Virus record (IMG/VR): IMGVR_UViG_2529292747_000014
Origin: a virus
Lineage: Duplodnaviria; Heunggongvirae; Uroviricota; Caudoviricetes
Length of the DNA stretch: 7,211 bases
Reading direction: 5' to 3' (one strand)
Part shown: one piece after another, positions 2,440 to 2,739 of the stretch
Position numbering within the stretch: the stretch's first letter is position 1
How the letters are laid out: each line of letters begins with the position of its first letter
The notes under the pieces: generated by a model
The model's input: only the letters and a program-made list of their open reading frames with translations
The model's database searches: none
Told to the model about the DNA's origin: nothing
Position numbers and translations under genes: made by a program

Positions 2440-2545
2440 ATTGAGTGATAAACACTCAACTGGATTCCAGTATAATCACTAAGTGGAATCCACTTCAAGC
2501 GTTTTGTTTTGGTCTTTTTCGTGTATACTGGATTCCAGTAATCAC
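2440..2545. promoter_or_regulatory. Divergent promoter/operator region with three palindromic sites of core TGGA-N-TCCA
   Basis: Perfect palindromes CTGGATTCCAG (2460-2470 and again 2528-2538) and AGTGGAATCCACT (2482-2494), plus GAGTGataaaCACTC (2443-2457). Leftward sigma70-like promoter: -35 TTGAAG (complement of 2493-2498), 18-bp spacer, -10 TATACT (complement of 2469-2474). Rightward -10 candidates are TATAAT (2471-2476) and TATACT (2524-2529), both with weak -35. The longer direct repeat ACTGGATTCCAGTA(T)AATCAC occurs at 2459-2479 and 2527-2546. Confidence 0.5.
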
Positions 2546-2559
2546 AAAGGGAACCAGAA

Positions 2560-2739
2560 ATGGAAAGAGACCATATCAATAACAAATCACAGAAATTACA
2601 GGCTCGCGCCCCGCATGAAGTTGTTGAGGCTATGGAGCAAGTAAAAGAAACAGGCGAGAGCACTGCGCAATTTATCGTTACAGCCATGCGAGGCGAGATC
2701 AAACGCCGCCAGCGCCGCAAGGCCAAAGAAGCGGAATAG
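2560..2739 (+). CDS. Small ribbon-helix-helix (Arc/Mnt-like) DNA-binding protein, 59 aa; putative repressor
   Basis: Below the ORF-track cutoff; manual translation: MERDHINNKSQKLQARAPHEVVEAMEQVKETGESTAQFIVTAMRGEIKRRQRRKAKEAE. The segment LQARAPHEVVEAMEQVKETGESTAQFIV fits the RHH beta-strand/helix pattern of P22 Arc (F-N-L-R-W-P-R-E-V-L-D-L-V-R-K-V-A-E-E-N-G-R-S). AAGGG SD is 8 nt upstream; an intrinsic terminator lies ~90 bp downstream. Confidence 0.5.
   Translation: MERDHINNKSQKLQARAPHEVVEAMEQVKETGESTAQFIVTAMRGEIKRRQRRKAKEAE

What the first reader, a model, noticed from the sequence alone, without database searches (positions are those of the whole stretch)
2440..2560. Triplicated TGGA-N-TCCA palindromic operators overlapping back-to-back promoters
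CTGGATTCCAG occurs twice (2460-2470, 2528-2538) and the related AGTGGAATCCACT once (2482-2494), with centres ~23 and ~45 bp apart (about 2 and 4 helical turns). They overlap the -10/-35 of a good leftward promoter (TTGAAG-18-TATACT) driving the small-ORF/primase operon, and a perfect rightward TATAAT. This looks like a genetic switch in which a dimeric repressor, plausibly the adjacent RHH protein, controls the replication/accessory operon and itself.
Basis: seen in the sequence. Interest (0 to 1): 0.55.

Follow-up and report, generated by a model that had tools for sequence, protein, structure and literature searches.

The report
Three operators for a satellite repressor
Three copies of a short DNA motif between two back-to-back genes of a phage-parasitising island are very probably docking sites for the small neighbouring ribbon-helix-helix protein, which would keep the island's replication genes and itself switched off; the same module, in at least 17 sequence variants, also sits undescribed in related islands, including the laboratory model EcCICFT073.

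Summary
ACTGGATTCCAGT lies at 2459-2471 and 2527-2539, and AGTGGAATCCACT at 2482-2494. These are the only matches in the window, against none in 200 shuffles.

The window is a helper-embedded PICI-type phage satellite. The sites lie between a YlcI/YnfO-family gene (2560-2739, predicted ribbon-helix-helix) and the leftward icd-like/primase operon.

In 96 related loci the three sites keep fixed positions. One overlaps the conserved rightward -10 (TATACT). One abuts the leftward -35 (TTGAnG). One lies at the leftward -10/start.

The 5-bp core inside a conserved GTG-N5-CAC frame differs between elements. It changes together with the residues that align to Arc's DNA-contacting positions.

Recombinant elements show that only the operator region plus the N-terminal half of the ribbon-helix-helix gene travel together. 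Icd, primase and Bro-N do not.

This is strong comparative evidence for an autoregulated repressor/operator switch with many specificity classes. Nothing is shown biochemically.

The conserved rightward promoter is TATACT 2524-2529, not TATAAT 2471-2476. Palindromy is specific to this class.

It is a new member of a known kind. The same module is present, and not mentioned in the 2018 paper I read, in EcCICFT073, whose repressor is reported as unclear.

The parts
2459..2471 (.). Operator O1, ACTGGATTCCAGT. It overlaps the -10 and the predicted start of the leftward promoter.
   Evidence: The equivalent site in relatives lies at -100/-102 or -112 from the RHH start codon, in either orientation.
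2482..2494 (.). Operator O2, AGTGGAATCCACT (15-bp palindrome 2481-2495). It lies in the spacer of the leftward promoter and touches its -35. It is not transcribed from either conserved promoter.
   Evidence: It sits at -77 from the start codon in 59-60 of 68 unique relatives.
2527..2539 (.). Operator O3, ACTGGATTCCAGT. It overlaps the -10 and predicted start of the RHH gene's own promoter.
   Evidence: It sits at -32 in relatives, usually with a CTG flank and often with 1-2 core mismatches to O2.
2493..2498 (-). Leftward promoter P_L, -35 hexamer TTGAAG.
   Evidence: TTGAnG in 56 of 60 unique relatives.
2469..2474 (-). Leftward promoter P_L, -10 hexamer TATACT (18-nt spacer). The predicted start is near 2462.
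   Evidence: An A2/T6 hexamer at a 17-18 nt spacer is present in 60 of 60 unique relatives. The start site is inferred.
2524..2529 (+). Rightward promoter P_R, -10 hexamer TATACT, with a weak -35. The predicted start is near 2536.
   Evidence: TATACT in 48 of 60 unique relatives and a -10-like variant (TATTCT, TATAGT, TATATT, TATGCT, CATAAT, CATACT) in the other 12. The consensus is gtGTATACTG. The start site is inferred.
2499..2523 (.). Conserved T-rich tract between O2 and P_R. It is A-rich on the P_L strand, so it may be an UP element for P_L and/or a DNA bend.
   Evidence: Consensus TTTt.ttt...ttTTTTt. The function is inferred.
2560..2739 (+). 59-aa YlcI/YnfO-family protein, a predicted ribbon-helix-helix repressor. 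Predicted DNA-reading residues are S10, K12, Q14 and R16.
2380..2660 (.). Exchangeable specificity cassette: leader hairpin, three operators and the N-terminal half of the RHH gene.
   Evidence: Identity to loci of other operator classes is 92-100% in 2180-2380, 48-65% in 2380-2660 and 80-98% in 2660-2740.
2828..2850 (+). Terminator-like hairpin plus T-run after the RHH gene. It has no U-run in the opposite direction.
2160..2363 (-). First gene of the regulated leftward operon, Icd-like cell-division inhibitor. It is followed by small ORFs, a DUF4222 gene (918-1160) and a primase (1-921).
2399..2433 (+). Conserved hairpin in the leader. It is probably the terminator of a rightward antisense RNA that covers the icd ribosome-binding site.
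   Evidence: Compensatory changes in 7 of 8 pairs. More stable on the + strand in 53 of 58 unique sequences, with G-U pairs 125/834 on + against 33/732 on -, and a T-rich tail on + only.
2351..2356 (+). Candidate -10 (TGG-TATGAT) for that antisense RNA.
   Evidence: A TAnnnT hexamer lies 42-43 nt before the hairpin anchor in 68 of 72 unique sequences. This is confounded by icd coding on the other strand.
2441..2459 (-). Inverted repeat TTGAGTG-ATAAA-CACTCAA abutting O1. It would form a stem-loop at the 5' end of the P_L transcript.
   Evidence: In relatives the arms change while staying complementary (TTGAATG/CATTCAA, TTGATAG/CTATCAA).
2471..2476 (+). It overlaps the P_L -10 on the other strand, is not conserved, and is probably not the functional rightward promoter.

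Best explanation
The three sites are operators of an autoregulated repressor switch in a phage satellite. The proposed repressor is the 59-aa YlcI/YnfO-family protein encoded at 2560-2739, a ribbon-helix-helix (RHH) protein.

Proposed binding. The protein binds as a dimer to each 11-13-bp site. Its two-stranded beta-sheet lies in the major groove. The invariant R16 (and S10) read the conserved outer GTG/CAC frame. The variable residues 12 and 14 (K and Q here) read the central 5 bp (GGAWTCC here).

Proposed effect on transcription.
- O2 lies in the spacer and -35 of the leftward promoter P_L. O1 lies over its -10 and start. Occupying them blocks transcription of the icd-like/small-ORF/DUF4222/primase (replication) operon and keeps the island quiescent.
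- O3 lies over the -10 and start of the protein's own promoter P_R. It usually fits the frame less well, so it would fill later and cap the repressor level.

Specificity. The core/beta-strand pair exists in at least 17 classes and is exchanged between elements as a cassette (2380-2660). It therefore acts like an immunity determinant that lets co-resident satellites be regulated independently.

Shown: site existence and significance; conserved geometry with the promoters; element-specific cores kept alike within an element; linkage only to the N-terminal half of the RHH gene; predicted RHH fold.

Inferred: physical binding, stoichiometry, the sign of regulation, the order in which sites fill, and how repression is lifted. 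My guess for the last is read-through from the convergent, AlpA-activated int-alpA-bro operon and/or a helper-encoded anti-repressor that acts on the invariant C-terminal half.
For: 1. Significance. There are 3 exact matches to ASTGGAWTCCAST, all within 81 bp, and none in 200 shuffles.

2. Promoter overlap. TTGAAG-18-TATACT runs leftward. In 60 unique relatives the leftward -35 is TTGAnG in 56, the leftward -10 has A2/T6 in 60, and the rightward -10 at -36..-31 is TATACT in 48.

3. Conserved positions. The sites lie at -32, -77 and -100/-112 from the start codon in 96 loci from many Enterobacterales. The consensus is GTG....cCAC.TCAAg..T-rich..GTATACTG....CAC.

4. Concerted, element-specific cores. 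The inner 5 nt of O2 and O3 match 4.53 of 5 within an element against 1.67 for shuffled pairings (0 of 100,000 shuffles reach the observed value). Between classes the match is 1.51. Seventeen beta-strand classes each have their own core, and the variable residues fall at positions 12 and 14.

5. Register with Arc. hhalign puts K12/Q14/R16 on Arc Q9/N11/R13. That these are Arc's base-contacting residues is from my knowledge of the Arc-operator structure.

6. Linkage.
- Five loci of other operator classes (L077, L080, L069, L058, L092) are 92-100% identical to the window in icd, 48-65% in 2380-2660, and 80-98% in the 3' part of the RHH gene.
- L010 is 97% identical over window 1018-2316 but belongs to another class.
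- L020-L032 are in the same class, yet their primase is only 74-81% identical.
- Bro-N is 92% identical in L082, which is in another class.

8. Orientation. O1 is the exact reverse complement of O2 in several classes (L008, L010, L013). O2 lies upstream of both predicted starts. The sites therefore act as double-stranded DNA.

9. Co-residence. Two elements of different class sit in one genome (L003 and L013, Tenebrionibacter BIT-L3).
Against: - There is no biochemical or genetic evidence of binding or repression.
- The window protein has no significant Pfam hit. Its profile finds no solved structure by sequence. Foldseek found nothing. The hhalign probabilities to Arc are low (18% and 7%).
- The first, shallow-alignment model made the N-terminus helical. 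The dimer could not be modelled.
- The recognition 'code' is not one-to-one. Within the K12/Q14 class, cores vary (GGATTCC, GGACTCC, GGCATCC in L038, GGAGTAC in L042) with no change in the beta-strand. Other residues or tolerance must contribute.
- Linked sequences co-diverge trivially. The argument therefore rests on the concerted identity of the three sites and on the recombinants.
- The site spacings (23 and 45 bp) are not integral helical turns. They are also wider than the roughly 11-bp dimer-dimer spacing I recall for cooperative RHH operators.
- P_R has a poor -35, so O2-bound protein could activate rather than merely coexist with P_R.
Confidence: 0.75

Rival explanations
1. The RHH protein does bind the sites, but its main job is not repression of the replication operon. 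It could activate P_R or P_L. It could also act as a centromere- or packaging-type DNA-binding protein, as the omega/ParG-type RHH proteins do. The K-12 relative YlcI, for comparison, sits next to a terminase small-subunit gene.
Against: O1 and O2 cover the core elements (-35, spacer, -10, start) of P_L, and O3 covers the -10 and start of P_R. That is the classical steric-repression layout. There are only three sites, all inside the promoter region, and none elsewhere in the island. No match to this protein was found in 50,697 phage records. The upstream region of K-12 ylcI shows no comparable three-site array by eye.
Confidence: 0.08
2. The repeats are bound by a different island protein: the Icd-like protein (listed by PHROGs as 'transcriptional repressor'), the AlpA-like protein or Bro-N.
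For: The Icd-like protein matches phrog_6196 and phrog_1743, both labelled transcriptional repressor. AlpA is a known activator in EcCICFT073 (PMC6092414). Bro-N family proteins can be DNA-binding repressors (PMC10111431).
Against: Elements with 92-100% identical icd, or 92% identical Bro-N, carry different operator cores. Elements with the same cores carry divergent neighbours. Only the N-terminal half of the RHH gene co-segregates with the sites.
Confidence: 0.05
3. The repeats are iterons of a replication origin, recognised by the island's primase/helicase as in P4.
For: Short repeats in direct or inverted orientation lie next to a replication operon. That P4 alpha protein binds repeated octamers in ori and crr is from my own knowledge.
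Against: The same operator class occurs with primase N-terminal regions that are only 74-81% identical. A different class occurs in L010, whose primase N-terminal region is 82% identical and whose adjacent operon stretch (window 1018-2316) is 97% identical. PICI origins are described downstream of pri-rep (PMC6092414). The sites sit exactly on promoter elements. The primase C-terminal domain could not be compared in most loci.
Confidence: 0.04
4. The repeats act at the RNA level, as complementary segments in an RNA-based immunity system like P4 CI/seqA-seqC or P1 c4.
For: The Icd-like gene is the neighbour of such RNAs in P1 (my own knowledge). Some Gram-negative PICIs carry C4/IsrK homologues (PMC10111431). 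The leader here is highly structured (z = -3.97).
Against: There is no Rfam hit in the window at E<=1 and no C4/IsrK hit in 20 relatives. O2 lies upstream of both conserved starts. The sites occur all direct in some classes and with O1 inverted in others, so a fixed RNA pairing scheme is impossible. The GTG/CAC dyad frame is what a dimeric protein would read.
Confidence: 0.03

Closest known systems
Arc and Mnt repressors of the phage P22 immI region
   Different: Sequence homology is not established (hhalign probability 7-18%). There is one protein and three separated single-dimer-sized sites, 23 and 45 bp apart, rather than Arc's two adjacent half-sites. The regulated operon starts with an Icd-like gene and a primase, not an antirepressor. 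The C-terminal basic helix EIKRRQRR is long and invariant. The host is a satellite, not a phage.
Phage lambda OR (three operators, divergent PR/PRM) and lambdoid immunity regions
   Same: Both have three related sites spread over two divergent promoters, with the site on the repressor's own promoter fitting the consensus less well. Operator and repressor specificity comes in many classes. It is exchanged as a cassette whose boundary lies inside the repressor gene.
   Different: The protein fold is different (helix-turn-helix CI/Cro against RHH). There is no second antagonistic regulator in the switch. There is no evidence of SOS cleavage. The order in which sites fill is only inferred here.
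Omega repressor (pSM19035) and CopG (pMV158)
   Different: Omega binds 7-10 contiguous heptads and CopG a single 13-bp element (my own knowledge). Here there are three spaced 11-13-bp sites. No sequence-level relationship was found.
Stl/Rpr master repressors of Gram-positive PICIs (SaPIs)
   Same: The genetic position is equivalent: a repressor gene divergent from the excision/replication operon of a phage satellite. The proposed role of keeping the island silent until a helper acts is also equivalent (PMC6092414).
   Different: Stl proteins are large helix-turn-helix proteins that are inactivated by binding helper proteins. Here the protein is a 59-aa RHH, the inducer is unknown, and Gram-negative PICIs are known to need the activator AlpA.
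P4 CI RNA / P1 c4 RNA immunity
   Same: The genomic neighbourhood is the same: immunity determinant, then an Icd/Kil-like gene, then a primase, in a satellite. Immunity specificity is carried by short sequence elements.
   Different: That system is RNA-RNA and works by termination or translation block. No homologous RNA was detected here, and the sites behave as double-stranded DNA protein sites.

Membership tests
Ribbon-helix-helix (MetJ/Arc/CopG) DNA-binding superfamily | Beta-alpha-alpha fold: an N-terminal strand followed by two helices | tested here: met
Ribbon-helix-helix (MetJ/Arc/CopG) DNA-binding superfamily | Obligate dimer forming a two-stranded antiparallel sheet | not testable with these tools
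   Only monomers can be modelled.
Ribbon-helix-helix (MetJ/Arc/CopG) DNA-binding superfamily | Alternating polar/hydrophobic strand and a G-x-S/T/N turn before helix 2 | tested here: met
   The strand is K9-S-Q-K-L-Q-A-R-A17, with variable polar positions 12 and 14 and hydrophobic positions 13, 15 and 17. The G32-E33-S34 turn has E33 invariant.
Ribbon-helix-helix (MetJ/Arc/CopG) DNA-binding superfamily | Significant sequence match to a curated RHH family | tested here: inconclusive
   The window protein has no Pfam hit at E<=0.01. Weak hits point to families I recognise as RHH-type (PSK_trans_fac in 9 of 39 members, CB_ParB_C, HicB). The distant relative P0199 scores 20.5 bits against RHH_1, exactly the cut-off. 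hhalign to Arc gives E 0.0013 and probability 18%.
Ribbon-helix-helix (MetJ/Arc/CopG) DNA-binding superfamily | Binds repeated short operator sites that overlap its own promoter | tested here: inconclusive
   Strong comparative support but no binding assay.
YlcI/YnfO family (NCBIfam NF041551) | Score above the curated cut-off | tested here: met
   72.3 bits against a cut-off of 30. RefSeq annotates the identical gene as a YlcI/YnfO family protein.
Gram-negative PICI / helper-embedded PICI satellites | int plus an alpA-type gene, a Bro zone, a primase/SSB replication zone and a late zone; about 10 kb; inserted in a helper prophage late gene | tested here: met
   The identical region in E. coli 13E0725 carries int, an HTH regulator, Bro-N, YlcI/YnfO, Icd-like, DUF4222, primase, SSB and a capsid-protease fusion. 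It lies between the two halves of a terminase large-subunit gene. The layout is as described in PMC10111431. The same module is in EcCICFT073.
P1 c4 / P4 CI RNA immunity (Rfam C4, IsrK) | A covariance-model match next to the icd/kil-like gene | tested here: not met
   No Rfam match in the window at E<=1. No C4/IsrK match in 20 relatives at the gathering score.
Replication-origin iterons | The repeats co-vary with the initiator protein | tested here: not met
   The same class occurs with primase N-terminal regions that are 74-81% identical. A different class occurs in L010, whose primase N-terminal region is 82% identical and whose adjacent operon stretch is 97% identical. The C-terminal domain was not compared.

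The most novel reading that the evidence does not exclude
This module is the missing master repressor and immunity determinant of enterobacterial PICI-type satellites. [quoted passage not shown]

In this reading, a 59-aa RHH protein holds the icd-primase operon off through three operators. It comes in many naturally orthogonal specificity classes, swapped as a 280-bp cassette, so that co-resident satellites do not cross-regulate.

Two further layers would overlie it. One is a cis-antisense RNA of about 75 nt that ends at the conserved leader hairpin and masks the icd ribosome-binding site. The other is AlpA-driven read-through from the convergent int-alpA-bro operon. That read-through runs antisense across the repressor gene and into the replication operon, which would explain why AlpA behaves as an activator.
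Probability: 0.4. Interest if true: 0.75.

Novelty: new member of a known kind. Interest (0 to 1): 0.62.

Why it matters
Gram-positive PICIs are controlled by a master repressor that helper phages inactivate. For Gram-negative PICIs the field has only the activator AlpA. The 2018 EcCICFT073 paper states that a global repressor is unclear and that the difference between the two groups is a mystery (PMC6092414).

The module analysed here is present in the prototype EcCICFT073 and in hundreds of E. coli genomes. It gives a concrete candidate repressor with mapped candidate operators, testable in an existing genetic system.

The 17 or more natural core/beta-strand pairs also form a ready-made series for working out how RHH proteins read DNA. 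They could supply small orthogonal repressor-operator pairs for synthetic circuits.

If the protein turns out not to repress, the strict three-site architecture would still need explaining.

Tried and rejected
- Pfam on the window protein: no family at E<=0.01.
- Profile search of all PDB sequences: only chance hits at E about 1.
- First AlphaFold2 run, on a shallow alignment (Neff 2): it made residues 8-16 helical. A more diverse alignment, built from the representative search, corrected this.
- Rfam, on the window at E<=1 and on 20 relatives at the gathering score: no C4/IsrK or any other RNA at the leader or operators.
- Extra operator copies in the island or its helper flanks: none.
- This protein in 50,697 phage genomes: no match.
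- K-12 ylcI as a model for function: it lies by nohD, and I saw no comparable three-site array upstream.
- Literature searches for YlcI/YnfO, DUF3950, and PICI plus ribbon-helix-helix or operator: no functional study found.
- Icd, Bro-N, AlpA or the primase as the binding protein: rejected on the recombinant evidence.
- The rightward TATAAT as the conserved promoter: rejected.
- Strict helical phasing as the reason for the spacing: not supported. 45 bp is invariant but equals 4.3 turns, and the O1-O2 distance varies between about 22-25 and 35-36 bp.
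Full report
**The observation**

ACTGGATTCCAGT occurs at 2459-2471 and 2527-2539. AGTGGAATCCACT occurs at 2482-2494. The outer two sites are part of a perfect 14-nt direct repeat. The middle one is a 15-bp palindrome.

The pattern ASTGGAWTCCAST matches three times in the 7211-bp window, all here. It matched in none of 200 dinucleotide-preserving shuffles. Allowing two mismatches adds nothing.

The promoter scan finds the leftward TTGAAG-18-TATACT (2498->2469). It also finds a rightward TAAACA-16-TATAAT that ends at 2476.

**Context**

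The window is a phage satellite.

- Leftward genes from the right: a tyrosine integrase (3718-4956), an AlpA-like HTH protein (3501-3725) and a Bro-N protein (2860-3441).
- Rightward: a 59-aa ORF (2560-2739), which NCBIfam places in the YlcI/YnfO family at 72 bits.
- Leftward from the intergenic region: an Icd-like gene (2160-2363), small ORFs, a DUF4222 gene and a primase.

A 100% identical region in E. coli 13E0725 shows an island of about 10 kb. It sits between the two halves of a terminase large-subunit gene of a lambdoid prophage. This is the helper-embedded PICI configuration described by Tommasini et al. 2023 (PMC10111431).

**Comparative anatomy**

I collected 95 related loci: 15 species representatives and 80 viral or prophage contigs. 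Together with the window they give 68 unique upstream regions. About 60 of these have exactly the same geometry.

- One 11-mer starts at -77 from the start codon.
- One starts at -32.
- A third starts at -100/-102 or -112.

The consensus of the region is AaGTG....cCAC.TCAAg..(T-rich)..gtGTATACTGt...cCAC...Gggaa.cAGaaATG.

The invariant parts are as follows.

- A GTG-N5-CAC frame.
- The minus-strand -35, TTGAnG (56 of 60), abutting the middle site.
- A minus-strand -10 with A2/T6 at a 17-18 nt spacer (60 of 60).
- A plus-strand -10, TATACT (48 of 60; the other 12 carry a -10-like variant), fused to the third site.

Only 27 of 60 have any A2/T6 hexamer there. It is best seen as the other strand of the leftward -10.

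Taking starts about 7 nt after each -10 (an inference), the site centres fall as follows.

| Site | Relative to P_L | Relative to P_R |
|---|---|---|
| O1 | about -3 | about -71 |
| O2 | about -26 | about -48 |
| O3 | not computed | about -3 |

**Specificity**

The five central base pairs differ from element to element. Examples are GGATTCC here, TGGCCC, TCAGCC, TCTTAC, AATCGC, AAATAC, AATGCC, AACACC, GCACCC and TTGAAC.

Within any one element the three sites agree. O2 and O3 share 4.53 of 5 inner positions, against 1.67 when elements are shuffled. None of 100,000 shuffles reached the observed value. Between classes the match is 1.51.

The variation tracks the segment K9-P18 of the adjacent protein. 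Seventeen distinct strand sequences each have their own core. The changes concentrate at positions 12 and 14, between the invariant S10 and R16.

In most classes the core is not palindromic. In several (L008, L010, L013 and others) O1 is the exact reverse complement of O2 and O3. The palindrome in the window is therefore a feature of the K12/Q14 class only.

The relationship is not a clean code. Within the K/Q class the core drifts (GGACTCC, GGCATCC, GGAGTAC) without any change in the strand.

**Linkage**

Linked sequences diverge together, so recombinants were needed.

- Against five loci of other operator classes, the window is 92-100% identical across icd (2180-2380). It is 48-65% identical across 2380-2660. 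It is 80-98% identical across the 3' part of the small gene.
- L010 shares 97% identity over window 1018-2316 but has a different class.
- L020-L032 share the class, yet their primase is only 74-81% identical.
- L082 has a 92% identical Bro-N gene but a different class.

Only the N-terminal half of the small gene travels with the sites. This excludes the Icd-like protein (despite its PHROG label 'transcriptional repressor') and Bro-N. It argues against the primase; only its N-terminal part could be compared.

**The protein**

Sequence searches alone do not prove a ribbon-helix-helix (RHH) fold. The evidence for it is as follows.

- An exhaustive profile search found only 92 representative clusters.
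- With a more diverse alignment, AlphaFold2 gave pLDDT 91.7, with an extended N-terminus and helices 19-28 and 35-58.
- One distant member scores exactly at the Pfam RHH_1 cut-off.
- hhalign aligns the strand in register with Arc. K12, Q14 and R16 fall on Arc Q9, N11 and R13. To my knowledge these are the residues that contact bases in the Arc-operator complex.
- The variable residues are therefore where an RHH reads DNA. The invariant R16 pairs naturally with the invariant G/C frame. This last point is an inference.

**Mechanism proposed**

Dimers on O2 and O1 occlude P_L and silence the icd-primase replication operon. A dimer on O3 limits the repressor's own synthesis. O3 usually has a CTG flank and sometimes core mismatches, so it is probably weaker.

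The conserved T-rich tract (2499-2523) is A-rich on the P_L strand. It may be an UP element for P_L.

The cassette-like exchange, and two elements of different class in one genome (L003 and L013), fit an immunity-type function.

How repression is lifted is unknown. The repressor gene is convergent with the int-alpA-bro operon. Its terminator (2828-2850) has a U-run in one direction only. AlpA-driven read-through across the repressor gene into the operon is therefore a plausible route. It is compatible with the published finding that AlpA activates downstream EcCICFT073 genes (PMC6092414).

**Comparison with what is known**

The switch works like the P22 Arc/Mnt, CopG and omega systems. In its logic it also resembles lambda OR and lambdoid immunity regions. 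It is a new member of that kind, not a new kind.

The family is new to study. My searches of the held library found no functional study of YlcI/YnfO or DUF3950, and no RHH/operator description for PICIs.

The prototype Gram-negative PICI, EcCICFT073, carries the same module.

- Gene C_RS30120 encodes MATGTTNAKSQALKARVP...
- Its operators are GGTGTGGCCCAC twice and CTGTCCCCCAC.
- These small genes carry out-of-series locus tags. This suggests, but does not prove, that they were added on re-annotation.
- The 2018 study does not mention them. It states that a global repressor in Gram-negative PICIs is unclear.
- No match to this protein was found in 50,697 phage records.

**Adjacent features found on the way**

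The leader between O1 and icd contains a hairpin (2399-2433).

- It has compensatory changes in 7 of 8 pairs.
- It is more stable on the plus strand in 53 of 58 unique sequences.
- It has four times more G-U pairs on the plus strand, and a T-rich tail on that strand only.
- A TAnnnT hexamer lies 42-43 nt upstream of it in 68 of 72 unique sequences.

Together these suggest a rightward antisense RNA of about 75 nt that covers the icd start codon and Shine-Dalgarno sequence. It has no Rfam match. The conserved hexamer is confounded by icd coding on the opposite strand.

A second inverted repeat (2441-2459) abuts O1 and keeps complementarity in relatives. It would be a 5' stem-loop of the P_L transcript.

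**Verdict**

No biochemical proof exists. I put confidence in the repressor/operator model at about 0.75.

Noticed in passing
window 2399-2433 (hairpin), 2351-2356 (candidate -10), about 2363-2440 overall, + strand: A conserved hairpin lies in the icd leader. It has compensatory changes, strand-specific G-U pairs and a T-rich tail on the + strand, and a position-conserved TAnnnT hexamer lies 42-43 nt upstream. Together these suggest a cis-antisense RNA of about 75 nt over the icd ribosome-binding site and start codon. It has no Rfam match.
   Followed up: partly
window 2441-2459: The inverted repeat TTGAGTG-ATAAA-CACTCAA lies immediately beside O1. In relatives the arms change but stay complementary (TTGAATG/CATTCAA, TTGATAG/CTATCAA, CACCTTGA/TCAAGGTG). 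It is probably a 5' stem-loop of the leftward transcript.
   Followed up: partly
window 4957-6125; L001 3274-4404 and 14822-15826: The island is inserted inside the terminase large-subunit gene of a lambdoid prophage. The N-terminal 335-codon fragment is at 5118-6125 in the window, and the C-terminal fragment lies on the far side of the island. This matches the helper-embedded PICI configuration of PMC10111431.
   Followed up: partly
L099 12474-13053 (NC_004431.1 1380473-1381052): The prototype Gram-negative PICI EcCICFT073 carries the same YlcI/YnfO and Icd-like divergent pair, with three operators of the TGTGGCCCAC class. The two genes have out-of-series locus tags (C_RS30120, C_RS30125). 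The 2018 characterisation does not mention them.
   Followed up: yes
window 1191-1968: The leftward operon looks decayed here. ORF 1357-1968 joins pieces that match phrog_340 and phrog_2512, and 1191-1364 matches phrog_340 again. RefSeq marks three genes in the identical region as frameshifted, internally stopped or partial.
   Followed up: no
L002, L010, L011, L013, L038, L086 (for example L013 5428-5493): Six relatives carry the Rfam int-alpA RNA motif (RF02996) near int/alpA. The window has no such match, and its int and alpA-like ORFs overlap (3718-3725).
   Followed up: no
window about 6945-7211: The right end of the window looks like the left end and first ORF of an IS3-family element. 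I recognise it from memory as IS629-like and did not test this. The otherwise identical strain 13E0725 has prophage lysis genes beyond the terminase small-subunit gene instead.
   Followed up: no
window 6780-6860 compared with L097 8590-8660: The region upstream of the helper's terminase small-subunit gene resembles, by eye, the K-12 DLP12 ylcI-nohD intergenic region (…caaaaatgataat.gttatcat…). K-12 ylcI, a distant relative of the satellite repressor, sits next to that region.
   Followed up: no
proteins P0113, P0117, P0126, P0127, P0136: Some family members are 101-114 aa long. They have the same N-terminal domain plus a C-terminal extension that I judge, from its sequence only, to be helical (compare phrog_6522, 101 positions). 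It may be an added oligomerisation domain.
   Followed up: no
L003 and L013 (Tenebrionibacter intestinalis BIT-L3); summary: One genome carries two elements with different operator classes. E. coli genomes hold up to 6 matching places each. This is consistent with heteroimmune co-residence, but I did not survey it systematically.
   Followed up: partly
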